From Escherichia phage phiWec187: a DNA stretch of 64,000 nucleotides. Shown one piece after another: positions 4,353 through 55,882 of this stretch; the first letter of the stretch is position 1, and every line of letters starts with the position of its first letter. The notes below the pieces were generated by a model. That model did not search any database. It was not told the origin of the DNA and saw only the letters and a list, made by a program, of their open reading frames with translations. Made by a program: the position numbers and the translations under genes. The stretch lies in sequence record LC739536.1; one strand, written 5' to 3'.

Positions 4353-4820
4353 TATTCTCATTGATATTTGAGGGGGACGGGCGGCAGAAATCGGGGGGCG
4401 CTGAAAATCGCGTTAAGCACCTCTCGCAAGCGAGCAGTATTTTGCGGCAAGTTATTGATATTATTGACTTTACGCTTATGAAAAGGGGGTGTGTCGAAAT
4501 AAATCGGGTATACCGGAAAATTTTTGTGGCATAGATATTTATTTGTCTATATTATGTACAAAGAGGTGTGTTAAAAATAATAGGTATATATAGAATAATT
4601 GATAGGGAAATCCTATACTAATCCCTATACTAATTCCTCCATTAATGATGTTCCTATGTTACTGTTCTTGTAATAGATGAAAAGATGCTATATGATGTGT
4701 GGCATGAAACGTAAATTTATAAGATGCAAATAATGCTTGCATTGAATAGAAATGCCTGTACACTGTGTTCCATAAGATATGCAATATCGCGCATAACAAA
4801 ACTACTAATGAGAGGTGTAA

Positions 4821-5138
4821 ATGAGAACCTTAGCTTTGTATATTGATCCTCACTCCATTCGAGAAATGCGAGATGTACAACAGGATTATGAATTCTACCC
4901 AGAAATTTGTGAACGCTATGAAACTATTCTTAGTTCTGTAGAAGATCCAGATACCAGTGAAACAGGTGTTTCCCACTTACTGTGGATGTTGAATGAAGTT
5001 CAGGATGGGTGTAATGGTATGTCTGAAACCAAACGCCATCGTTGGCTAGGCTATATTCAGGGTGTTATGGTTATGAAAAACCTTATTACAGTGGATGATG
5101 AACGTAACGCTACACGCCCCGTCTTTAATGGAGCATAA
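4821..5138 (+). CDS. hypothetical protein
   Basis: track ORF; GAGAGGTG RBS before ATG; first gene after the noncoding region. Confidence 0.55.
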   Translation: MRTLALYIDPHSIREMRDVQQDYEFYPEICERYETILSSVEDPDTSETGVSHLLWMLNEVQDGCNGMSETKRHRWLGYIQGVMVMKNLITVDDERNATRPVFNGA

Positions 5139-5139
5139 C

Positions 5140-5355
5140 ATGAAAAGCATTCAGGTGTGTATTGAAAATAATTGTGGTTATCTGGGATTGACACACGTTG
5201 CTTTCCCTCTTATATTAGATGCCGATATCGCTTACAGCGGAGTTGCTTATGTGTCATTCAAGACAATGAGCCAAGTACCTGGCTGGAAGTGGGAAGTAGT
5301 TGATGTTGTTGAAGGAGAAGACTATGTTTTCCTTCCACACGAATATACTGTTTAA
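5140..5355 (+). CDS. hypothetical protein
   Basis: track ORF 5095-5355 trimmed to Met16 (ATG 5140) directly after upstream stop; GGAG RBS. Confidence 0.5.
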   Translation: MKSIQVCIENNCGYLGLTHVAFPLILDADIAYSGVAYVSFKTMSQVPGWKWEVVDVVEGEDYVFLPHEYTV

Positions 5356-5369
5356 AAGAGGAAAAGAAG

Positions 5370-5540
5370 ATGAATAAAGAGACTACTGTGTACTTAGTAA
5401 CAAAGAATACCCCAGGCTGGAGCCAATGCAGCACTGTACCTTATAAAATCTGTGCAACACTAGCACAACGTGCAGAAGCAGAAGTGAATGCCATGCAATA
5501 CAGCTATGGTGAAATCATTCCTTTTACTCTTGAACAATAA
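5370..5540 (+). CDS. hypothetical small protein (56 aa)
   Basis: ATG 5370 with AAAGAGGAAAAG RBS; not in track because under 60 aa. Confidence 0.45.
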   Translation: MNKETTVYLVTKNTPGWSQCSTVPYKICATLAQRAEAEVNAMQYSYGEIIPFTLEQ

Positions 5541-5551
5541 GGAGTTGTGTA

Positions 5552-6004
5552 ATGTTTGAAATTGGTAAAGTGTATCGTTTTAAGAACCCATCTTATATCC
5601 GTAAGTTTGCTAACGTGTCTGAGTGCAATAGCAGGATTGCTTCTTTTTTAGGTGATTCCTATTTTCGTGTATTAGATGTGGATGATTGGTATGGTGTCAC
5701 TGCTTTGCAATCCTTAGCAGGAGAACAAGAAATTATCGCTCAAAATGAAGGAGACTTTCTTCAGTGTTACACGTTGCTTGCAAAAAGTGAGTTTGAATAC
5801 TTTGTAGAAGTATTAGAAGAAGCACCAAAAAGTAAGCATGAAGAGAAATACCTGCTTGTAGTGGATGGAGTTCCGATCATGGAAACCATCTCCCGTGAGG
5901 AAGTTGAAAAAGAGGCGAAACGTTACAAGCTGGATCGTACACAGAGTGTAGTTGAAGTCTATTCTCTTGTTGGTGTTGCAGATATTAGTGTGAACATCGT
6001 ATAA
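5552..6004 (+). CDS. hypothetical protein
   Basis: track ORF; AAGGAG RBS. Confidence 0.6.
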   Translation: MFEIGKVYRFKNPSYIRKFANVSECNSRIASFLGDSYFRVLDVDDWYGVTALQSLAGEQEIIAQNEGDFLQCYTLLAKSEFEYFVEVLEEAPKSKHEEKYLLVVDGVPIMETISREEVEKEAKRYKLDRTQSVVEVYSLVGVADISVNIV

Positions 6005-16527: not shown

Positions 16528-17340
16528 TTATTTAGTCAAATGATCTTCTATCATTTTTATGAAAGCAGGATTGCTAAAAGCATCTGCGGCCTTTTCTCGA
16601 TAAACAAAGACTCCTCTATCTTCGTAAAGAAGAGTTTCTTCGTAATTAATTCCTGGGTTAACAACAATCATTTTTGTACCCATATTAAGTGCAGGGAATA
16701 ATTCCCAATTAAAATTGATAACTTGGTTTGAACATCCTACTACAACAACCAAATCTTGCATGGTCAAAGTATCAAACAAGTGAGCCATATCTGCATACAA
16801 AGGTGCAGCCTCACCAAAAAATACAACATTAGGCTTCACCCAGTTGTAATCATCTATGTTTATACTGTTGTAACCAATATCTACCAGTGTTTTGTAATCC
16901 CCAGGATGCATACGGTAAACTACTTCAGGAAGATATCCGTGCACGTGGATAACAGAATCCCTGTCTACACCTGCTCGCTCTAGTAGATCATCAACGTTTG
17001 TTGTCAAGTTTACTACTTGGTTAGGATATTCCTTAAACCACTTTGCTATTTGAATATGTGCAGCATTAGGTTGTACATCTTTAAGCTCAACACGTCTTTT
17101 GTTATAAAATTCGTGTGTTTTGGCATACAAATCCATACCGTTTTCGTCTACACCACCAACCACTGGAAGATCTGGTGATGTTCTCACACGATAACCTGCT
17201 TGGAAAGCTCCAATATCGCAGATCTCTTCTAAATCCCATTCTTCCCATAGGGCACGACCACTATCTGTGTCTGTTCGGAATGTTCGAATCCCACTATCTG
17301 CACTTAAACCAGCTCCACTAACAAAAATTACTCTTCGCAT
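16528..17340 (-). CDS. Sir2-family (sirtuin-like) NAD-dependent protein
   Basis: GAGLSADSGIRTFR, PNAAHIQIA, TTNVDDLLERAG, HVHG, KPNVVFFGEAAP, VVVVGCS match Sir2 catalytic-core motifs; no CxxC zinc motif. Confidence 0.75.
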   Translation of the reverse strand: MRRVIFVSGAGLSADSGIRTFRTDTDSGRALWEEWDLEEICDIGAFQAGYRVRTSPDLPVVGGVDENGMDLYAKTHEFYNKRRVELKDVQPNAAHIQIAKWFKEYPNQVVNLTTNVDDLLERAGVDRDSVIHVHGYLPEVVYRMHPGDYKTLVDIGYNSINIDDYNWVKPNVVFFGEAAPLYADMAHLFDTLTMQDLVVVVGCSNQVINFNWELFPALNMGTKMIVVNPGINYEETLLYEDRGVFVYREKAADAFSNPAFIKMIEDHLTK

Positions 17341-21827: not shown

Positions 21828-22573
21828 TAGTCCTCCTCTAAAGTAGAATAAAATTGTAACGTATTTGAATCATCAAAATATGCAAAGGTTAAATTACCAT
21901 TGAAGCAAGATCCTGTATCCATATATACCCTATTACTGCTAATTACAGGTTTAGGAACATAAGAATGCCCGTGAAATACATAATCTACTCCTGAAACTCT
22001 AGGAAGAAGAATCCCTTCAAGGGCGCAATCTATCATATCACGATCCCACATTAAAGATTCTGTGAATCGAGATACTTGTTCTTTATTCATATTCGAACAA
22101 AATGGCAAAACTTCCGTCACTGGCAGATGTTCCAAAACTGAAGGATATCCCCCGTGAATAAAGCCTAGTTTCATATTACGATAATTGACAACAAGTACAA
22201 CAGGTAAGTCTTCTAGCATCAAAGCAAGAGCAGTTGCACCTTCTTCTCCACACTCATTTAGAACTGTATGGCCTCCGTTCTGAAACCAACATTCGTAATA
22301 TCGCCTATCACCTTCTAGCAACCCTTTAATCATCATATCTTCGTGATTTCCACGAATACCATAGCGATTTAGCTTTCTGGTGAATTCAACGGTACAACGA
22401 AAATTCTGCTTGCCGCGATCTGTAAGATCTCCTAAAGATACAACAACATCTTGATCTCGGATACCTAAAGTATTAACACCTTTCTGGTACAAATCAAAGC
22501 AACCATGTAAATCACCAATAATAAACAGGTCTTGATCATCTTTTACACTAATTTCTTGATATACTAGCATCAA
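21827..22573 (-). CDS. Ser/Thr protein phosphatase (metallophosphatase)
   Basis: GDLHG, GDLTDRG, GNHE, GH motifs of the calcineurin-like PPP family. Confidence 0.75.
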   Translation of the reverse strand: MMLVYQEISVKDDQDLFIIGDLHGCFDLYQKGVNTLGIRDQDVVVSLGDLTDRGKQNFRCTVEFTRKLNRYGIRGNHEDMMIKGLLEGDRRYYECWFQNGGHTVLNECGEEGATALALMLEDLPVVLVVNYRNMKLGFIHGGYPSVLEHLPVTEVLPFCSNMNKEQVSRFTESLMWDRDMIDCALEGILLPRVSGVDYVFHGHSYVPKPVISSNRVYMDTGSCFNGNLTFAYFDDSNTLQFYSTLEED

Positions 22574-31006: not shown

Positions 31007-31996
31007 TTAAACTTTATTTTCCCACCACTCTTTGTTATCTACATACCAATCAATGGTTGAATAAAGTTTTTCTTCAAATGTGCCTTTAGCTTTCCACCCT
31101 AATTCCTTTTCAATCTTATAAGGATTCACTTCGTATCTTAAATCATGCCCAGGTCTATCTGTAACCATCTCAATGAGGCTACAAGCATCTGTTTCAGATG
31201 GATACACCGCATCCATATAATCACAAATCATATAGATTACATCAATATTAGTTCTAGGGTTTCTGCTCCCAATATTATATGTTTCTCCAGATTTGCCTTT
31301 AGTTACTACTAGGTGTAATGCTTCTGCGTGATCGTCAACGTATAACCAATCTCTTACTTGAAGACCATTGCCATAAACAGGGATTGGTTTATTCATTAAG
31401 ATATTTGTTATCGTCTTAGGTATTAGTTTTTCTGGATGATGATATGCTCCAAAATTATTTGAACAATTTGTTATAACTGTCGGAATACCATAAGTACGAT
31501 GCCACGCTCTTACCAAATGATCGCTTGCAGCTTTAGATGCAGCATATGGACTACTTGGTTTATAAGGATTCTGTTCTGTAAACGGATAATCCCCTTCTTC
31601 CAGATCACCATACACTTCATCTGTTGAAATATGATGGAACATTTTAAGATTTGATTTATCTCCTATTAAACGAACAGCTTCTAAAAGATTAAATGTCCCA
31701 ACAATATTTGAATTTATAAAAACACTCGGTGATGCTATTGAATTATCTACGTGACTCTCTGCTGCAAGATGCATTATATAATCTGGATTAACATCTGCCA
31801 CAATCTTAGCAGTTAACTGAGCATTTGTCAAGTCAACACGACAAAACTTTACATTAGGTGTTTCTGATAAATTCCTAGGGTCTGAAGCGTAACCCCATTT
31901 ATCTATAACGTAAATATCATTCTTAGTATTTTTAGCCAGGAAACGAACTACTGCACTTCCAATAAAACCTAAACCACCTGTTACTAAGTATTTCAT
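31007..31996 (-). CDS. rmlB: dTDP-glucose 4,6-dehydratase
   Basis: [10 protein letters not shown] Rossmann motif, [19 protein letters not shown] (YxxxK). Confidence 0.85.
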
Positions 31997-44485: not shown

Positions 44486-45208
44486 TTAAGCAATGATTGC
44501 TGCGATATTAGGTTTAACAAAGGTAGATGGTTTCATAATTTTACCTTTGTCATCAAAGAATACGTACACCTTTTGAACTTCGTTATATACAGCATGTACC
44601 CCAGTATAAGAACCTTCTGCACGATCTTTGCTTCGCATCTCGATAGCATCGCACTCTTTTTCAAGAGCTTCAATAATATCCTTAGTTTCCCAAATAGCTA
44701 GGAGTTGCTTCTTGGTAGGATACTTGGACTCATTGCTATTCAACACTTCACGCATAACCTTCTTCTCGTTATAAACAGAACGCACCAAAGTATCTCGTGC
44801 CATACGGGTAAGTGTAAGAGACATTAAGGCAAATTGCAAGTCATTTTCTACCATTTTATCAAATTCAATGATAACATCGTAAATGTTCTCTGCCAGAACA
44901 TCTCCTGTTGGCATTTCCAGAGCTTTATCAACACCTTCTTTACCAAAGAACATAAACGCCAGGTAGGATGCTACCACAAAAATATCTGCTGCTGCATCAA
45001 GTAATTCAACGTGATCATTTTCCTGTGCTGCTGCTTGAAACTCTTTAAGTTCTTCTCGTACAAAAGAAAGTTGAGCTTCAAACATCTCTTGAGTAAATTC
45101 TGGAGTTACTCCACCGCGTGCCTTAGCATTCCAAGCAACAATTTGATCGGCAGCTTTGATAAAGAAGCTATTGTCCACTTTTACTTGTTTGAAAAAATTC
45201 TCGATCAT
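44486..45208 (-). CDS. MazG-like NTP pyrophosphohydrolase (tentative)
   Basis: EELKEFQAA...ELLDAAADI resembles MazG/HisE all-alpha motif; weak. Confidence 0.35.
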   Translation of the reverse strand: MIENFFKQVKVDNSFFIKAADQIVAWNAKARGGVTPEFTQEMFEAQLSFVREELKEFQAAAQENDHVELLDAAADIFVVASYLAFMFFGKEGVDKALEMPTGDVLAENIYDVIIEFDKMVENDLQFALMSLTLTRMARDTLVRSVYNEKKVMREVLNSNESKYPTKKQLLAIWETKDIIEALEKECDAIEMRSKDRAEGSYTGVHAVYNEVQKVYVFFDDKGKIMKPSTFVKPNIAAIIA

Positions 45209-48601: not shown

Positions 48602-49153
48602 TTAATCTCCTTTGATTATCTTATGATGGTCTACAACAACAATATCACGCTTATCCATAATAGATATGATTTCGTCAAAATGCAAGATTTTCCCGTGTGC
48701 ATCCCAACCAACATCCAACATCTTCCCATACAAATGATCAGGGAATGATCCGTGAGAGTGTCCGTGTAGCATGATTGATCCATGCCCTTGTTTATTCCAT
48801 GCAGCCATAGGGTAATGGCTTAAGACGAAAAACAGCTTCTGATATTTCACTTCGTCATAATAAATCACTTCTCCATACTCTGCAAGCACTTTTCTGTGTT
48901 TACTGTAATCATGGTTCCCAACACAGTAAGTAATATCCCCTTGGAGACGGGAAGCAATCTTACGGGTATCTTCTTCAGTCCCGAAACAGAAGTCCCCAAG
49001 ATGGTACATCTTTACTCCTGGTGTTGTGGCACATTTATTCCATGCTTCGATCAGTGCTTCTGTCATATGCTCCATATCTTCCCACGGGCGATATTCAGGA
49101 GCAAACTCTCGGATACGTTTGTGCATAAAATGCAAATCACTTGTAATAAACAT
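48602..49153 (-). CDS. calcineurin-like metallophosphoesterase
   Basis: DLHF, GDF, GNHD, GHSHG motifs; first gene of three-gene operon with ligase and kinase. Confidence 0.65.
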   Translation of the reverse strand: MFITSDLHFMHKRIREFAPEYRPWEDMEHMTEALIEAWNKCATTPGVKMYHLGDFCFGTEEDTRKIASRLQGDITYCVGNHDYSKHRKVLAEYGEVIYYDEVKYQKLFFVLSHYPMAAWNKQGHGSIMLHGHSHGSFPDHLYGKMLDVGWDAHGKILHFDEIISIMDKRDIVVVDHHKIIKGD

Positions 49154-51638: not shown

Positions 51639-51979
51639 TATTTCCTCCTGTACGGCTCTGTAACGAGCTAATAGCCTCTAAGATATGCAATCACCTTACC
51701 TCACAGTAAAACTCGTTACAATCGTTTTTAGGAGGTTTAGGTTGTACTTAAAAATAATCTAAAAAGGTGTTGACAAACGCAAAAAAGTATGCTACCCTAA
51801 CCCCCGAAAAACGCCGAGCGCAGCGAGGGGGTGTTATCTAATCTTGTGATACATGATCTAACAGACAACTGAGTAGTCTACATATAGCACTATGTTATGT
51901 CTATAATACTAACATACATACTCTATACTAACAATAGATTCTTTATTAATTTTATTATTAATTAAATAATAAATATCTA

Positions 51980-52008
51980 TTGACTTTAGATCTATCTGTA
52001 TGTAGAGT
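51980..52008 (+). promoter_or_regulatory. sigma70-like promoter
   Basis: -35 TTGACT 51980-51985, 17 bp spacer, -10 TAGAGT 52003-52008. Confidence 0.5.
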
Positions 52009-52047
52009 AGAGAACATAAAGTCCTAACTCAACTAAGGAGATAAACA

Positions 52048-52941
52048 ATGAAAGTTAGTATTCTACATGGTGTTGACTGTTATGTTACTGATGTAGACGT
52101 TAAAGTCTTTACATTCTCTGGTGGAGAACAACATGTTCAACTAGATACGAATCTATCAGGTTTCAATCATGCTACAGACAGAATCTTACTCTCTTTAGAA
52201 GTAAGATCTGCTAAAGACTTGATGACTTTGGTTATGACTAAGAATGCATTGGACAATATGCTATATCATAAACCATATTGTGTTGATTTACTCATGCTGT
52301 ATGTACCGTATGCACGACAAGACAGAGTGTGTGAGCCTGGGGAAGCATTCGGAGTTAAAGCCTTTGCTTCTATAATTAATTCATTAAATTTCTCACGTGT
52401 TATCGTTGCTGATCCACATAGTGATGTTACTCCAGCAGTGTTTGACAGACTCTGTGTAATACCTCAAGAAGAGATTGCTTACGAAACTTTAAAGTGGAAG
52501 TTACGTATGGAGAATTTTGCTCTTGTTAGTCCTGATGGTGGTGCTCTTAAGAAAATATTTAAATTATCTAAGAAAATGTCTTTAGATGTGTTCTGTGCAG
52601 AGAAGGTTAGAGATACTGCAACAGGTGCTATTGTTCGTACAGACATTTCTGTACAGGATTTCAATAAGCGTAACCTGATGATCGTAGATGATATCTGTGA
52701 CGGCGGTAGAACTTTTATTGAATTGGCTAAAGTGCTACGTGCTCGTAACGCAGGTAAGATTGAGTTATATGTTACACACGGTATCTTTTCTAAAGGTCTT
52801 AAAGAGTTAAGTGAGCACTTTGACTGCATTCATTCTCTTAATGTGTGGGAAGATAACATCCAAGAAGATTCCGGTGTTCTTGTTAAGAATCAGTCAGATT
52901 TGCAACAACAAATTGTATCTCCATACGTGTGGAATTTTTAA
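52048..52941 (+). CDS. Prs-like phosphoribosyl pyrophosphokinase
   Basis: hallmark PYARQDR loop and VDDICDGGRT (PRPP-binding-like); AAGGAG RBS. Confidence 0.75.
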   Translation: MKVSILHGVDCYVTDVDVKVFTFSGGEQHVQLDTNLSGFNHATDRILLSLEVRSAKDLMTLVMTKNALDNMLYHKPYCVDLLMLYVPYARQDRVCEPGEAFGVKAFASIINSLNFSRVIVADPHSDVTPAVFDRLCVIPQEEIAYETLKWKLRMENFALVSPDGGALKKIFKLSKKMSLDVFCAEKVRDTATGAIVRTDISVQDFNKRNLMIVDDICDGGRTFIELAKVLRARNAGKIELYVTHGIFSKGLKELSEHFDCIHSLNVWEDNIQEDSGVLVKNQSDLQQQIVSPYVWNF

Positions 52942-52951
52942 ATAATAAGTG

Positions 52952-52986
52952 TTGACAATAGGGAGTATGCTTAGTAAGATACTCCC
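52952..52986 (+). promoter_or_regulatory. sigma70-like promoter with overlapping inverted repeat
   Basis: -35 TTGACA 52952-52957, 17 bp spacer, -10 TAAGAT 52975-52980; arms GGGAGTAT (52961-68) and ATACTCCC (52979-86). Confidence 0.5.
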
Positions 52987-53012
52987 ACACTAACAAACAA
53001 GGAGACATAACT

Positions 53013-54746
53013 ATGAATATTTTTGCACCTTTTGCTACTGATTGGTATAAACCTGGTCACAAGCAGATGTACAACCAAAATACAAAACTCATTTTCTCTA
53101 ATTTAACTCCTCGTAATGATAAAAACTTTGCACACTATGCAGATCGTGAAGCACGTGGTGTAATTGTTTTAGGTATTCGTCGAGCAGTTACTGATGCTCT
53201 TGTAACTATGTGGGATGGCTTCTTTAAAATGTCTCGTAGTGCAGCAGTAAATAAATTTTATCGTATGTCTAAGAATGCATTAGGTGCTTCTGCTCCTTCT
53301 GCTGAATGTTGGGGAGAATTGCACGATTTAGGTTATCTTCCGCTAGAAGTTCGATCTCTGCCAGAAGGTGTTTTGTGTCCTATTGGTGTTCCTGTGTTTA
53401 CTGTGCATAACACTTTAGAAAAATTCTTTTGGTTAACTAACTATGTGGAAACACTCTTGTCAGATGAAACTTGGAAGACAATGACTAATGCCACAGCAGC
53501 TTTTCAGTATAAGCGTATCGCTATGGCGTATGCGATGGCAACGTGTGATAACATTGATCACGTTAATTTCCAGTGTCATGACTTTAGCCTACGTGGTTTA
53601 AGCAATATCGAAGATGGTTATAAGAGTGGTATCGCTCATTTGGCATCTTTCACAGGTACAGATAATATTCTGGCTATTGAAACTGTGCATGATTACTATG
53701 GTATTGATTATGATCAGTTTGTTGCAGGTTCTATTCCGGCAACAGAACATTCAGTAGCAACGACTAACATTGGAGCTATTGTTGAAGATCTGAAGAAACA
53801 TTTCCCACATCTTAAAGATGATGTTGATGGGCTTCGTTATGTAGCAGAGAAAGAGTTTCTTCGCCGCTATATTGAAGAAATTGTTCCAGAAGGTTTTTGT
53901 TCATATGTAGCAGATTCTTATGATTACTGGGCTGTCTTGACTCGCATTCTGGTAGAATTGAAAGAGTCCATTATGTCACGAAATGGTCGTCTTGTTATTC
54001 GTCCAGACTCAGGAGATCCGGTTAAAGTTGTTGCAGGATACAATGTTGAATCTTTTGATAACTATGAAGACCTTTTAAATAATGGTATTGCTACAGCCAC
54101 TGAAGTAGTACATTTGGCTGATGTTAATAAGTATTACAATGTTCTTCAGGATTGCAGTGTTGCTGATTGTATTGATGAAACTTATGAGATTCCTTATTGT
54201 GAAGCAGTAGGTTCTATTCAAATCCTTTGGGAAGTGTTTGGTGGTACTATCAACCGAAAAGGCTACAAGGTTCTTGATCAGCACATCGGTATGATTTATG
54301 GTGATTCTATTACTGTTGAACGAGAACACGAGATCTTACGCCGACTGAAGAAGAAAGGTTTTGCAGCTTCCAATATTGTATTTGGTGTTGGTAGTTATAC
54401 TTATCAGTTCAATACACGAGATACTTTTGGTTTTGCTGTTAAAGCAACAGGTAGTATCATCGGTGAACACGAAATTTTGGTAAGTAAGGAGCCTAAAACT
54501 GATCCTGGTAAACGCTCTGCAAAAGGTTTTATTAAGGTTGTTAAGGATACAAATGGTAAACTTTCTCTTGTGGATAATCTTTCTTTTAAAGATATCCAAG
54601 ATGAAGACAATGAGTTAAAAGTTATCTTCAGGGATGGTACGGTTATTACACCACAAGTAGAAGGACGTGATGAAACATTTACTGATATCCGTAACCGTGT
54701 TGATGTAGAGGTTCTTCGTACTATGGGAACCATCCAGGTTGACTAA
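53013..54746 (+). CDS. nadV: nicotinamide phosphoribosyltransferase-like (Nampt/NadV family)
   Basis: ATDWYK, LPEG, VFTVHNT...WLTNYVETLL, HDFSLRG, FTGTDN, SIPATEHS, IRPDSGDP, KEPKTDPGKRSAKG parallel Nampt blocks. Confidence 0.8.
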   Translation: MNIFAPFATDWYKPGHKQMYNQNTKLIFSNLTPRNDKNFAHYADREARGVIVLGIRRAVTDALVTMWDGFFKMSRSAAVNKFYRMSKNALGASAPSAECWGELHDLGYLPLEVRSLPEGVLCPIGVPVFTVHNTLEKFFWLTNYVETLLSDETWKTMTNATAAFQYKRIAMAYAMATCDNIDHVNFQCHDFSLRGLSNIEDGYKSGIAHLASFTGTDNILAIETVHDYYGIDYDQFVAGSIPATEHSVATTNIGAIVEDLKKHFPHLKDDVDGLRYVAEKEFLRRYIEEIVPEGFCSYVADSYDYWAVLTRILVELKESIMSRNGRLVIRPDSGDPVKVVAGYNVESFDNYEDLLNNGIATATEVVHLADVNKYYNVLQDCSVADCIDETYEIPYCEAVGSIQILWEVFGGTINRKGYKVLDQHIGMIYGDSITVEREHEILRRLKKKGFAASNIVFGVGSYTYQFNTRDTFGFAVKATGSIIGEHEILVSKEPKTDPGKRSAKGFIKVVKDTNGKLSLVDNLSFKDIQDEDNELKVIFRDGTVITPQVEGRDETFTDIRNRVDVEVLRTMGTIQVD

Positions 54747-54817
54747 ATAAAAACTTCGTGATAAGATTAAGGTAAGGAGAGCCTGCAACTGCCCTGGATG
54801 GGCTTCACGAAGGATTT

Positions 54818-55200: not shown

Positions 55201-55230
55201 TTGACAACATAGCTAGTTATTTGCTAAGAT
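55201..55230 (+). promoter_or_regulatory. sigma70-like promoter
   Basis: -35 TTGACA 55201-55206, 18 bp spacer, -10 TAAGAT 55225-55230. Confidence 0.45.
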
Positions 55231-55534: not shown

Positions 55535-55610
55535 GGTTCCATAGCTCACTGACGAGAGCGCACACCTCATAAGTGTCGAGGGCAGGGATTGTAACCCTGG
55601 GGAACCACCA
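55535..55610 (+). tRNA. tRNA-Met/Ile2 (anticodon CAT)
   Basis: acceptor GGTTCC/GGAACC, anticodon loop CTCATAA, encoded CCA; T-loop ATTGTAA atypical. Confidence 0.65.
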
Positions 55611-55641
55611 TTTAAAAGGAGGTGCTATGCATCTCCTATAT

Positions 55642-55728
55642 GCAAGTGTGGTGGAATTGGTGATACACATTGTGCTTAAAACGCAACGCTTAAATGCTTG
55701 AGGGTTCGAATCCCTCCACTTGCACCAA
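55642..55728 (+). tRNA. tRNA-Leu (anticodon TAA)
   Basis: acceptor GCAAGTG/CACTTGC, loop CTTAAAA, long variable arm, T-loop TTCGAAT, CCA. Confidence 0.8.
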
Positions 55729-55742
55729 AACCTAAAAATATC

Positions 55743-55771
55743 TTGACATTTACTTAGTTTTTTGTTATAGT
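55743..55771 (+). promoter_or_regulatory. sigma70-like promoter inside tRNA array
   Basis: -35 TTGACA 55743-55748, 17 bp spacer, -10 TATAGT 55766-55771. Confidence 0.55.
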
Positions 55772-55782
55772 TACTATGAAAA

Positions 55783-55864
55783 CGGGGTGTATCTCACCTG
55801 ACTTCTAATCAGGCGTTAACCGAGTAATTGGAGTATGCAGGTTCGAATCCTGTCACCCCGGCCA
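55783..55864 (+). tRNA. atypical tRNA-like gene (possible Arg, TCT)
   Basis: perfect acceptor CGGGGTG/CACCCCG, T-arm GCAGG-TTCGAAT-CCTGT, CCA; CCTGA-CTTCTAA-TCAGG arm too close to 5-prime end for a canonical cloverleaf. Confidence 0.4.
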
Positions 55865-55882
55865 AAAAGTTTTAAAAACTAC

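What the first reader, a model, noticed from the sequence alone, without database searches (positions are those of the whole stretch)
52048..54746. Prs-like plus Nampt-like gene pair: candidate NAD+ reconstitution (anti-defense) module
Adjacent plus-strand genes encode a phosphoribosyl-pyrophosphokinase homolog (PYARQDR loop, VDDICDGGRT) and a nicotinamide phosphoribosyltransferase homolog (many Nampt/NadV blocks), each with its own promoter. Such pairs in phages are known either as classical NAD+ salvage (PRPP plus nicotinamide to NMN) or, per recent work, as an NAD+ reconstitution pathway in which the Prs-like enzyme pyrophosphorylates ADP-ribose and the Nampt-like enzyme condenses it with nicotinamide, countering NAD+-depleting defenses. 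No NMN adenylyltransferase is recognisable in this window, which is compatible with the second route. The Nampt homolog is about 80 aa longer than typical and may hold an insertion.
Basis: partly seen in the sequence, partly recalled or inferred. Interest (0 to 1): 0.6.

Follow-up and report, generated by a model that had tools for sequence, protein, structure and literature searches.

The report
Known phage NAD+ rebuilding gene pair
These two adjacent genes in a phi92-like coliphage are the already catalogued NARP1 pair (Adps and Namat), which rebuilds NAD+ from ADP-ribose and nicotinamide to defeat NAD+-depleting bacterial defences, so the finding is real and correctly read but not new.

Summary
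The window comes from a phi92-like coliphage (Justusliebigvirus). Both ORFs exist exactly as described: 52048-52941 (297 aa, Prs-like) and 53013-54746 (577 aa, Nampt-like). They are phi92 gp107/gp108.

The pair is the known NAD+ reconstitution pathway 1 (NARP1: Adps + Namat), discovered in phage Bas63. The discovery paper's supplementary tables already list the phi92, PaulScherrer and EmilieFrey orthologs as an Adps homolog with a Namat neighbour and as "Adps-associated" Namat.

My own tests agree.
- **Adps:** the Prs-like protein scores like validated Adps on family models, not like cellular Prs. It keeps the catalytic lysine and carries Adps-type motifs.
- **Namat:** the Nampt-like protein carries the published Namat clamp motif (GSYTYQFNTRD). 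PRPP-using Nampts (KVP40-like, H. ducreyi NadV, Xanthomonas) lack it.
- **Structure:** its model best matches the SpβL1 Namat crystal structure.
- **Extra length:** the ~85 extra residues are mainly two surface insertions, at sites where Bas63 Namat is also expanded.
- **NMNAT:** none is recognisable in the genome of the closest annotated relative.

No phi92-type ortholog has been assayed, so substrate specificity remains an inference. Verdict: interpretation supported, already known, low interest.

The parts
51980..52008 (+). Promoter-like site upstream of the Adps gene (TTGACT-17-TAGAGT)
   Evidence: 9 of 12 consensus positions. It lies about 40 nt upstream of the ATG, in the 409-nt divergent intergenic region 51639-52047. 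Pattern match only.
52048..52941 (+). adps: ADP-ribose pyrophosphate synthetase homolog (Prs family), 297 aa; equals phi92 gp107
   Evidence: It is 35% identical to Bas63 Adps (E=7e-43). Its profile scores match validated Adps, not E. coli Prs. phi92's ortholog is listed in Table S1 of the discovery paper.
52306..52326 (+). PYARQDR flexible/catalytic loop of Adps (aa 87-93)
   Evidence: R90, D92 and R93 align with E. coli Prs R96, D98 and R99.
52600..52626 (+). EKVRDTATG segment holding catalytic K186 and R188 (Adps-type K-x-R-D-x-x-T-G)
   Evidence: K186 aligns with E. coli Prs K194. By my own family knowledge (not aligned here, because no B. subtilis Prs or SpβL1 Adps sequence was available), E. 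coli K194 corresponds to B. subtilis K197, whose SpβL1 equivalent K162 was mutated to abolish activity. Cellular Prs read KRRP-RAN here.
52684..52713 (+). VDDICDGGRT ribose-phosphate binding loop of Adps (aa 213-222)
   Evidence: The form is D-G-G, as in Bas63, ICP1 (DGA) and DyoEdafos Adps, against D-T-G-G-T in cellular Prs.
52952..52980 (+). Promoter-like site between the two genes (TTGACA-17-TAAGAT)
   Evidence: It belongs to a motif found 4 times in the window against 0.16 expected. The 71-nt spacer is identical to phi92's.
53013..54746 (+). namat: nicotinamide ADP-ribose transferase homolog (Nampt family), 577 aa; equals phi92 gp108
   Evidence: It is 40% identical to Bas63 Namat (E=9e-137). 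The best PDB match by sequence and by fold is SpβL1 Namat 9W5X (E=1e-117; TM 0.94). phi92's ortholog is listed as 'Adps-associated' in Table S2.
53109..53135 (+). Selectivity-clamp loop (SCL) region, PRNDKNFAH (aa 33-41)
   Evidence: K37 aligns with SpβL1 R40 and the Bas63 K. K37 and F39 are each conserved in 46 of 48 long-form Namats.
53769..53855 (+). Insertion 1 of Namat (aa 253-281; about 22 residues more than SpβL1 Namat)
   Evidence: It is modelled as an extension of a helical hairpin (H246-263, H271-290). Bas63 Namat has a shorter extension at the same site.
54039..54209 (+). Insertion 2 of Namat (aa 343-399; about 46 residues more than SpβL1 Namat)
   Evidence: It is modelled confidently as a small alpha/beta unit. 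It is the least conserved region (0.42 against about 0.76 for the core) and varies from 47 to 93 residues in length. Bas63 has a longer insert at the same site. No Pfam domain matches.
54390..54422 (+). Selectivity-clamp helix (SCH) motif GSYTYQFNTRD (aa 460-470)
   Evidence: [quoted passage not shown]

Best explanation
The two genes are the phi92-type version of NAD+ reconstitution pathway 1 (NARP1). When a bacterial defence NADase (SIR2-HerA/Nezha, Thoeris, DSR1/2, SEFIR and others) cleaves NAD+ into ADP-ribose and nicotinamide, the pathway rebuilds it in two steps. First, the Prs-like enzyme (Adps) uses ATP to pyrophosphorylate the terminal ribose of ADP-ribose, giving ADPR-PP. Second, the Nampt-like enzyme (Namat) displaces the pyrophosphate with nicotinamide and regenerates NAD+ directly, without NMN and without an NMN adenylyltransferase.

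Shown in the literature for other orthologs: both reactions in vitro (SpβL1, DyoEdafos, Paenibacillus foliorum), and counter-defence in vivo (Bas63, Fado, the ICP1 NrsAB pair, and the three-gene operon of Vibrio phage Gary).

Shown here: the window proteins carry the family-specific sequence features, intact catalytic residues, the Namat fold and the right gene arrangement, and they evolve under purifying selection.

Inferred: that the phi92-type enzymes have the same substrate specificities and the same counter-defence role.
For: 1. Identity of the locus. The pair is 97-99% identical in DNA to 55 phage records of phi92-like genomes, and equals phi92 gp107/gp108.

2. Prior classification. Osterman et al. 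(bioRxiv 10.1101/2024.02.11.579819) list phi92 FR775895_00103, and the PaulScherrer and EmilieFrey orthologs, among Adps homologs. The phi92 row reads 'Namat within 10 genes: Yes'. They list the partner genes as 'Adps-associated' Namat homologs. They say the operon recurs in four BASEL phages.

3. Adps versus Prs. On TIGR01251 the window protein scores 118.8 bits, validated or genetically supported Adps score 81.7-138.5, and E. coli Prs scores 422.7. On NF002320 the figures are 99.6, 61-100.8 and 532.6. On phrog_619 they are 305.7, 243-333 and 193. Every solved cellular Prs (bacterial, archaeal, human) scores 59 bits or less, against 136 bits to Bas63 Adps. The protein shares Adps-type motifs and the catalytic K186/R188/H124. 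It nests inside the Adps clade in an NJ tree.

4. Namat versus Nampt. The SCH motif GSYTYQFNTRD matches Namat (SpβL1 GSFTYQYNTRD, Bas63 GSYTYQYMTRD, DyoEdafos GSFTYQHNTRD, ICP1 GSYTYQYVTRD). The KVP40-like Nampt has GGGLLQQSDRD, H. ducreyi NadV has GAQTYQRNTRD and Xanthomonas Nampt has GGALLQKVDRD. Aromatic residues occupy clamp position 3 in 48 of 48 and position 7 in 45 of 48 subfamily members. Catalytic-core residues are invariant.

5. Structure. The AF2 model has pLDDT 90.9, and its best match is the Namat crystal structure 9W5X (TM 0.94).

6. No Nmnat or NadR is annotated or detectable in the closest relative's 146-kb genome.

7. Against phi92, 21 codons differ synonymously and 5 non-synonymously.
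Against: No phi92-type ortholog has been purified or deleted in any paper I could find.

Identity to validated orthologs is only about 26-40%.

The determinants of ADPR versus ribose-5-phosphate choice in Adps are not structurally defined, because no Adps structure is in the PDB copy. The Adps assignment therefore rests on clade membership and synteny.

The residue after the SCL lysine is Asn, not the aromatic stacker reported for Bas63. A conserved Phe sits one position further on.

Namat enzymes keep PRPP-to-NMN activity in vitro, so some classical salvage cannot be excluded.

My tree outgroup was limited to gammaproteobacterial Prs, and deep nodes have low bootstrap support.
Confidence: 0.86

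Rival explanations
1. Classical NAD+ salvage. The Prs-like enzyme makes PRPP from ribose-5-phosphate, the Nampt-like enzyme makes NMN from PRPP and nicotinamide, and host NadR or PncC/NadD finish the synthesis of NAD+.
For: Database annotations give these names. TIGR01251 is passed marginally (118.8 against a cutoff of 113) and NF006629 is passed. [quoted passage not shown]
Against: All specific Prs models fall far below their cutoffs (50-100 bits against 296-536), as they do for validated Adps. SpβL1 Adps yielded no product in the control reaction but made ADPR-PP from ADPR; the figure legend describes that control as ribose-5-phosphate + ATP, while the running text says PRPP + ATP. The Namat clamp motif is present, and PRPP-using Nampts lack it. 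Bas63 still overcame SIR2-HerA in a ΔpncC ΔnadR host.
Confidence: 0.06
2. The same chemistry (ADPR + nicotinamide to NAD+), but the main role is housekeeping for the phage rather than counter-defence. It would recycle the products of the phage's own NAD+-consuming enzymes, such as the phage sirtuin at 16531-17340, or sustain NAD+ during a large-genome infection.
For: The phage encodes a Sir2-family protein in the same window (PF02146, 81 bits). Close relatives also encode a Poa1p/OARD1-type macrodomain protein elsewhere in the genome. Together with Adps/Namat these could close a sirtuin NAD+ cycle.
Against: In Bas63, ADPR-PP appeared only when a defence NADase was present, and deleting the operon had its phenotype on defence strains. 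No data link the phage Sir2 to this pathway. The Sir2 and macrodomain genes are not adjacent to the pair.
Confidence: 0.07
3. NARP2-type pathway: Nampt plus Nmnat, building NAD+ through NMN from PRPP.
For: Overall similarity to NadV/Nampt is high. H. ducreyi NadV gives TM 0.92 and E=3e-100.
Against: No Nmnat is annotated in the genome, and the only 'nucleotidyltransferase' (197 aa) has no Pfam or PDB match. The SCH-equivalent of a KVP40-like Nampt differs. An Adps gene is adjacent. The discovery paper found no phage that carries both pathways.
Confidence: 0.01

Closest known systems
NARP1 of Escherichia phage Bas63 (JohannRWettstein, Felixounavirus), genes 79-80: Adps + Namat (Osterman et al., bioRxiv 10.1101/2024.02.11.579819)
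   Same: Same two-gene order, Adps then Namat, with a short spacer (45 nt in Bas63, 71 nt here). Adps is 293 aa there and 297 here. Both Namats are long forms (593 and 577 aa) with insertions at the same two sites. Both have a Lys at the SCL position and a GSYTYQ(Y/F)xTRD clamp helix. Both match phrog_619 and phrog_448.
   Different: Identity is only 35% (Adps) and 40% (Namat). The phage lineage differs (Stephanstirmvirinae against Ounavirinae). Insertion 2 is 57 residues here and about 83 in Bas63. The residue after the SCL Lys is Asn here and Trp in Bas63. The phi92-type pair has not been tested experimentally.
NARP1 of Bacillus phage SpβL1 (biochemically characterised; Namat crystal structures 9W5X/9W5W, PMC12774641)
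   Same: It is the best PDB match by sequence (E=1e-117) and by fold (TM 0.94, rmsd 2.6 Å, 38% identity). All NAD+-contacting core residues are conserved (D10/Y12, F191, R194, D217, H246, R330, D332, G430-D431, G460-S461, R469-D470). The catalytic Lys of Adps is conserved.
   Different: SpβL1 Namat is 491 aa and lacks both insertions. Its SCL uses Arg40 as the adenine stacker, where the window protein has Lys37. SCH positions 3 and 7 are F/Y there and Y/F here.
NARP2 of Vibrio phage KVP40 (Nampt + Nmnat), and cellular NadV/Nampt (H. ducreyi 9KE8, Xanthomonas 7YQO, human)
   Same: Same Nampt fold and catalytic core. All pass NF006629 and phrog_448.
   Different: The PRPP-using enzymes lack aromatic residues at clamp positions 3 and 7 (GGGLLQQSDRD, GAQTYQRNTRD, GGALLQKVDRD). 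The phage ones pair with Nmnat rather than with a Prs-like gene.
Cellular ribose-phosphate pyrophosphokinase (Prs, class I; for example E. coli b1207)
   Same: Same fold family. The YARQDR loop, the catalytic His, Lys and Arg, and the DD acidic pair are shared.
   Different: Identity is 25%. The N-terminal segment is missing. The motifs differ: DPHS for DLHA, K-x-R-D-x-x-T-G for KRRP-RAN, D-G-G-R-T for D-T-G-G-T. Scores on the Prs models are 4-5 times lower.
NARP1-AP (Adps - Macro-domain phosphatase Adpp - Namat; Vibrio phage Gary; bioRxiv 10.64898/2026.01.28.702374)
   Same: Same Adps and Namat core. Close relatives of this phage encode a Poa1p/OARD1-type macrodomain protein.
   Different: No macrodomain gene lies in or next to the pair, or anywhere in this window. 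In the relative Nernie it lies about 82 kb away.

Membership tests
NARP1 Adps (ADPR-PP synthetase) | Prs-family fold with an intact catalytic lysine (the position of B. subtilis Prs K197 / SpβL1 Adps K162) and the associated active-site residues | tested here: met
   K186, R188, H124, D163, D214/D215 and R90/D92/R93 align with E. coli Prs K194, R196, H131, D170, D220/D221 and R96/D98/R99, and are conserved in Bas63, ICP1 and DyoEdafos Adps. The K162 mutation is described. The step from E. coli K194 to B. subtilis K197 rests on my own family knowledge; it was not aligned here.
NARP1 Adps (ADPR-PP synthetase) | Belongs to the phage Adps clade, separate from cellular Prs | tested here: met
   Profile calibration, shared Adps-type motifs, an NJ tree (narrow outgroup, weak deep nodes), and the listing in Table S1 of the discovery paper.
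NARP1 Adps (ADPR-PP synthetase) | A Namat homolog in the immediate vicinity (97% of clade members) | tested here: met
   The Namat homolog starts 71 nt downstream on the same strand.
NARP1 Adps (ADPR-PP synthetase) | Pyrophosphorylates ADP-ribose, not ribose-5-phosphate, using ATP | not testable with these tools
   This needs an enzyme assay with LC-MS. It has been shown only for orthologs such as SpβL1 and DyoEdafos.
NARP1 Namat (nicotinamide ADPR-transferase) | Nampt-like catalytic core (nicotinamide and ribose-phosphate contacts, catalytic His) | tested here: met
   D10, Y12, F191, R194, D217, H246, R330, D332, G430, D431, G460, S461, R469 and D470 are present, and invariant in 48 subfamily members.
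NARP1 Namat (nicotinamide ADPR-transferase) | [quoted passage not shown] | tested here: met
   The window has GSYTYQFNTRD (aa 460-470). The negative controls K491 Nampt, HdNadV and Xcc Nampt lack the aromatics. Across 48 subfamily members, 48 have an aromatic at position 3 and 45 at position 7.
NARP1 Namat (nicotinamide ADPR-transferase) | Selectivity-clamp loop with Arg, Lys or Tyr at its third position and an adjacent adenine-stacking residue | tested here: inconclusive
   K37 aligns with SpβL1 R40 and the Bas63 Lys. The next residue is Asn (Trp in Bas63). A conserved Phe39 follows one position later (46 of 48). No ligand-bound model was made.
NARP1 Namat (nicotinamide ADPR-transferase) | Prefers ADPR-PP over PRPP and makes NAD+ directly | not testable with these tools
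   This needs a competition assay. It has been shown only for SpβL1 Namat.
NARP2 (Nampt + Nmnat) | An NMN adenylyltransferase encoded in the same phage | tested here: not met
   None is annotated in the closest relative's whole genome. The only 'nucleotidyltransferase' has no Pfam hit and no PDB relative.
Canonical ribose-phosphate pyrophosphokinase (Prs) | Reaches the curated cutoff of a specific Prs model | tested here: not met
   The specific models score 50-100 bits against cutoffs of 296-536. Only the broad TIGR01251 is passed marginally (118.8 against 113). E. coli Prs scores 422.7 on TIGR01251 and 532.6 on NF002320.
NARP1-AP (NARP1 with associated ADPR-1''-P phosphatase) | A Macro-domain Adpp gene within the NARP1 operon | tested here: not met
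   No macrodomain homolog is in the window. The ORFs flanking the pair have no Macro or RyR hit. A Macro-domain gene does exist elsewhere in relatives' genomes.

The most novel reading that the evidence does not exclude
In phi92-like phages the Adps/Namat pair may be the hub of a dispersed phage NAD+/ADP-ribose network. The other parts would be a phage sirtuin (window 16531-17340) and a Poa1p/OARD1-type macrodomain enzyme encoded about 82 kb away in relatives. The macrodomain enzyme could turn O-acetyl-ADPR or ADPR-1''-phosphate into ADPR for Adps. That would either give a NARP1-AP acting in trans, extending protection to aRES-type defences, or recycle the phage sirtuin's own by-products. Separately, the variable 47-93-residue insertion in long-form Namats could have a role of its own, such as docking Adps to hand over the labile ADPR-PP.
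Probability: 0.12. Interest if true: 0.45.

Novelty: already known. Interest (0 to 1): 0.15.

Why it matters
NARP1 is an important recent discovery: viruses rebuild a metabolite that host immunity destroys. This window adds nothing to it, because the phi92-type genes are already in the discovery paper's tables.

The practical value is in annotation. These genes are still labelled 'ribose-phosphate pyrophosphokinase' and 'nicotinamide/nicotinate phosphoribosyltransferase' in every annotated record listed. The clamp motif plus the Adps-type motifs give a simple way to relabel them.

phi92-like phages are used in therapy-oriented collections, so knowing that they probably resist NAD+-depleting defences is useful background.

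Tried and rejected
1. The genome-contig scan with E. coli Prs, meant to supply a diverse cellular outgroup, returned only gammaproteobacterial Prs at 80% identity or more. The tree is therefore weakly rooted. I relied on curated profile scores and PDB scores instead.

2. The first bootstrap run timed out. I redid it with a faster distance routine. Deep nodes are poorly supported.

3. PHROGs and NCBIfam do not separate Namat from Nampt, since all pass phrog_448 and NF006629. Fold search does not separate them either: HdNadV gives TM 0.92 against 0.94 for Namat. Only the clamp motif discriminates.

4. I guessed that the gene upstream of the KVP40-like Nampt in Vibrio phage K491 might be Nmnat. 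Pfam says it is not, so I had no Nmnat query sequence. The absence of Nmnat rests on annotation plus Pfam and PDB checks of the single candidate.

5. P0215 (867 aa) was suspected to be an Adps-Namat fusion. It is not: it is a Namat with a large extra insert.

6. Pfam on the two insertion segments gave only chance-level hits.

7. phi92's 'hypothetical tRNA' inside the Namat gene was not reproduced by ARAGORN.

8. I considered and rejected a decayed or non-functional pair. The catalytic residues are intact and the substitutions are mostly synonymous.
Full report
**What the window is.** The 2.7-kb region is 97-99% identical in DNA to 55 phage records of phi92-like genomes. These include Antha, Nernie, phi92 and the BASEL phages PaulScherrer, EmilieFrey and JohannJBalmer. 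The first 25 kb of the window match the same group. phi92 is classified as Stephanstirmvirinae, Justusliebigvirus. In phi92 the two genes are gp107 ('ribose-phosphate pyrophosphokinase') and gp108 ('nicotinamide phosphoribosyl transferase').

**Observation check.** Each has an AAGGAG Shine-Dalgarno sequence.
- The quoted motifs PYARQDR (aa 87-93) and VDDICDGGRT (aa 213-222) are present.
- The first protein matches Pribosyltran/Pribosyl_synth, TIGR01251 and phrog_619. The second matches NAPRTase, NF006629 and phrog_448.
- The pair sits at the start of a + strand block, just after a switch in gene orientation and GC skew near 52 kb. A 15-tRNA array follows at 55535-58453.

**Promoters.** Promoter-like sites precede both genes.
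- The site between the genes belongs to the motif TTGAC-N18/19-TAAGAT. It occurs 4 times in the window against 0.16 expected, and 0 of 100 shuffles reached 4. Three of the four copies lie on the + strand at 52952, 54739 and 55201.
- No terminator-like site separates the genes.
- 'Each with its own promoter' is therefore plausible, and read-through co-transcription is likely as well. These are pattern matches, not evidence of function.

**What is already known.** Osterman et al. (bioRxiv 10.1101/2024.02.11.579819) noticed a two-gene Prs-like/Nampt-like operon that recurs in four BASEL phages.
- Deleting it from Bas63 made the phage sensitive to SIR2-HerA and lowered NAD+ during infection. The effect did not need host PncC or NadR.
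- With the homologs from phage SpβL1 they showed the chemistry. The Prs-like enzyme (Adps) makes ADPR-pyrophosphate from ADPR + ATP. The Nampt-like enzyme (Namat) joins ADPR-PP to nicotinamide to give NAD+, and prefers ADPR-PP over PRPP.
- They found the pathway (NARP1) in 859 phage genomes, 4.3% of those analysed. A Namat homolog lies next to 97% of Adps-clade genes.
- Bas63 is a Felixounavirus (MZ501086), not a phi92-like phage.
- Their supplementary tables explicitly list phi92 FR775895_00103 and the PaulScherrer and EmilieFrey orthologs among Adps homologs. The phi92 row reads 'Namat within 10 genes: Yes'. The adjacent genes are listed as 'Adps-associated' Namat homologs.
- Later work added Namat crystal structures and a defining 'selectivity clamp' (PMC12774641). 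It also added a Macro-domain phosphatase extension (NARP1-AP) and a RyR-domain glycosidase that feeds the pathway.
- I found no paper that tests a phi92-type ortholog directly.

**Independent test of the Prs-like protein.** Overall identity is low everywhere: 35% to Bas63 Adps by BLASTP (E=7e-43), 26-37% to DyoEdafos and ICP1 Adps, and 25% to E. coli Prs in a common alignment. I therefore calibrated curated profiles with known proteins.

| Model | Window protein | Bas63 / ICP1 / DyoEdafos Adps | E. coli Prs |
|---|---|---|---|
| TIGR01251 | 118.8 | 138.5 / 98.0 / 81.7 | 422.7 |
| NF002320 | 99.6 | 100.8 / 80.1 / 61.0 | 532.6 |
| phrog_619 | 305.7 | 333 / 285 / 243 | 193 |

- All solved cellular Prs, from bacteria, archaea and human, score 59 bits or less.
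- The catalytic residues are intact. K186 aligns with E. coli Prs K194. By my own family knowledge (not aligned here), that position corresponds to B. subtilis K197, whose SpβL1 equivalent K162 was mutated in the discovery paper.
- The window protein shares features with every Adps examined that differ from the cellular Prs in the alignment: DPHS (not DLHA), K-x-R-D-x-x-T-G (not KRRP-RAN), D-G-G (not D-T-G) in the ribose-phosphate loop, THGIFS, and a shorter N-terminus.
- In an NJ tree it falls inside the Adps clade. Its own subgroup, with Citrobacter phage Tr1, Klebsiella phage FKP3 and metagenomic relatives, has 98% bootstrap support. DyoEdafos, Bas63 and ICP1 bracket it.
- Two caveats apply. 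The only outgroup I could obtain was gammaproteobacterial Prs, and deep nodes are weakly supported.

**Independent test of the Nampt-like protein.** It is 40% identical to Bas63 Namat (E=9e-137).
- Its best PDB match is SpβL1 Namat 9W5X/9W5W (E=1e-117). H. ducreyi NadV follows (E=3e-100), then human Nampt (about 1e-48).
- Profile libraries and fold do not separate Namat from Nampt. [quoted passage not shown]

| Protein | Type | Clamp-helix sequence |
|---|---|---|
| Window | this study | GSYTYQFNTRD (aa 460-470) |
| SpβL1 | Namat | GSFTYQYNTRD |
| Bas63 | Namat | GSYTYQYMTRD |
| DyoEdafos | Namat | GSFTYQHNTRD |
| ICP1 | Namat | GSYTYQYVTRD |
| Vibrio phage K491 (KVP40-like) | Nampt | GGGLLQQSDRD |
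| H. ducreyi NadV | Nampt | GAQTYQRNTRD |
| Xanthomonas Nampt | Nampt | GGALLQKVDRD |

- Among 48 long-form relatives, position 3 is aromatic in 48 and position 7 in 45. All catalytic-core residues are invariant.
- In the clamp loop, K37 aligns with SpβL1 R40 and with the Bas63 Lys. The next residue is Asn rather than Trp as in Bas63, and a conserved Phe39 follows (46 of 48). I call this feature inconclusive.
- An AlphaFold2 model built on the 48-sequence alignment is confident (mean pLDDT 90.9, pTM 0.90). It superposes best on the Namat crystal structure (TM 0.94 on the target, rmsd 2.6 Å).

**The extra length.** Relative to the 491-aa SpβL1 Namat, the window protein has two insertions.
- Insertion 1 is aa 253-281 (+22 residues) and extends a helical hairpin.
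- Insertion 2 is aa 343-399 (+46 residues). It is modelled with pLDDT of about 88-96 as a small alpha/beta unit.
- There are also small additions in the clamp loop and near the C-terminus.
- Bas63 Namat, whose function in vivo is established, is expanded at the same two sites.
- Insertion 2 is the least conserved part of the protein (0.42 mean majority frequency against about 0.76 for the core). Its length varies from 47 to 93 residues among relatives. It matches no Pfam domain.
- The PMC12774641 text contains no use of 'insertion', and its only 'inserted' refers to cloning.
- The simplest reading is a variable surface decoration. A specific role is not excluded.

**No NMN adenylyltransferase.** The full annotation of the closest relative (Nernie, 146 kb) contains no Nmnat or NadR. 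The single 'nucleotidyltransferase' (197 aa) has no Pfam match and no PDB relative. This fits NARP1 and argues against NARP2. The discovery paper reports no phage carrying both.

**Selection.** Against phi92, 21 codons differ synonymously and 5 non-synonymously across the two genes. The 71-nt spacer is identical. The genes are maintained by purifying selection.

**Mechanism and confidence.** The pair most likely works as NARP1. Adps converts ADPR, released by defence NADases, into ADPR-PP using ATP. Namat then condenses ADPR-PP with nicotinamide to give NAD+.
- The chemistry and the counter-defence role are shown for other orthologs.
- Here I show family membership by sequence, motif, fold and synteny.
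- Substrate specificity and phenotype for the phi92-type proteins are inferred.
- I put this at about 0.86.
- Classical salvage through PRPP and NMN is the main rival (about 0.06). A phage-housekeeping role for the same chemistry is possible and not exclusive (about 0.07).

**Novelty.** Already known. The gene pair of this phage group is listed by name in the discovery paper's tables. Interest is low.

**Side observations.**
- The phage encodes a sirtuin in this window (16531-17340, minus strand).
- Close relatives encode a Poa1p/OARD1-type macrodomain protein far from the pair. It has a homolog directly next to an Adps gene in Vibrio phage K470.
- Whether these genes cooperate with Adps/Namat is untested.

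Noticed in passing
window 16531-17340 (- strand): The phage encodes a Sir2-family protein (270 aa; PF02146, 81 bits in the 99%-identical Nernie ortholog). This is an NAD+-consuming enzyme family, in the same genome as the NAD+-rebuilding pair. Its role is unknown.
   Followed up: partly
Nernie PP925835.1 117098-117832 (locus L090:17098-17832); not in the window: A Macro-domain protein (PF01661; nearest solved relatives are OARD1/TARG1-type and bacterial macrodomains) lies about 82 kb from the Adps/Namat pair. A homolog (37% identity, E=1e-15) lies directly next to an Adps gene in Vibrio phage K470. It might act as an ADPR-1''-P phosphatase or an O-acetyl-ADPR deacetylase feeding NARP1 in trans.
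   Followed up: partly
window 31803-31831 (-), 52952-52980, 54739-54767, 55201-55230 (+): A recurrent promoter-like motif, TTGAC-N18/19-TAAGAT. It occurs 4 times against 0.16 expected by chance, and three copies cluster around the Adps/Namat/tRNA region.
   Followed up: partly
window 55535-58453 (+): An array of 15 tRNA genes (Met, Leu, Ser x2, Lys, Tyr, Asn, Thr, Gly, Gln, Pro, Phe, Leu, Met, Ile) starts about 790 nt downstream of the Namat gene, interspersed with small ORFs.
   Followed up: no
window about 53605-53755 (phi92 NC_023693 49736-49886): The phi92 records annotate a 151-nt 'hypothetical tRNA' inside the Namat coding sequence. ARAGORN finds no tRNA there, so the feature looks spurious.
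   Followed up: yes
GenBank MG065639, MG065645, MG065656, MG065689 (hits H7-H9, H140): Four records named 'Campylobacter phage' (host given as C. jejuni), about 146.4 kb each, are 99% identical to this E. coli phi92-like phage over the locus and 97-98% over 25 kb. This suggests mislabelling or contamination of those records.
   Followed up: no
Shigella phage Ag3 FJ373894_00125 (Table S1 of the discovery paper); phrog_12872: A 547-aa-type ORF joins the N-terminal two thirds of an Adps to the C-terminal part of a Namat. Both window proteins hit phrog_12872 on complementary halves. It could be a deletion chimera or a sequencing artefact.
   Followed up: no
protein P0215 (867 aa, metagenomic): A Namat homolog with about 290 extra residues in the middle. 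It is not an Adps fusion. It may carry an intein or homing-endonuclease insert.
   Followed up: partly
locus L006 (Vibrio phage ICP1 MW794174) 4410-5729: The Namat (NrsB) gene is annotated as 439 aa, starting at profile position 57, with an in-frame stop just upstream. The N-terminal part that holds the Asp/Tyr nicotinamide contacts and the clamp loop is missing from the annotated ORF in this isolate. This could be a frameshift, a mis-annotation or a real truncation.
   Followed up: no
window 44489-45208 (-), 48605-49153 (-), 21830-22570 (-): Other nucleotide or phosphate-handling genes on the opposite strand: a PRA-PH/MazG-like nucleotide pyrophosphohydrolase, a calcineurin-like phosphoesterase and a NinI-like Ser/Thr phosphatase. 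No link to the NAD+ pathway was tested.
   Followed up: no
proteins P0061, P0062, P0087, P0103 (Thorsellia anophelis; Geminocystis spp.): Adps-clade homologs (43-46% identical to the window protein) occur in bacterial genome records; for two Geminocystis strains the contigs are chromosome-sized (3.9-4.2 Mb). This agrees with reports that NARP1 also occurs in some bacteria. I did not inspect their neighbourhoods.
   Followed up: no
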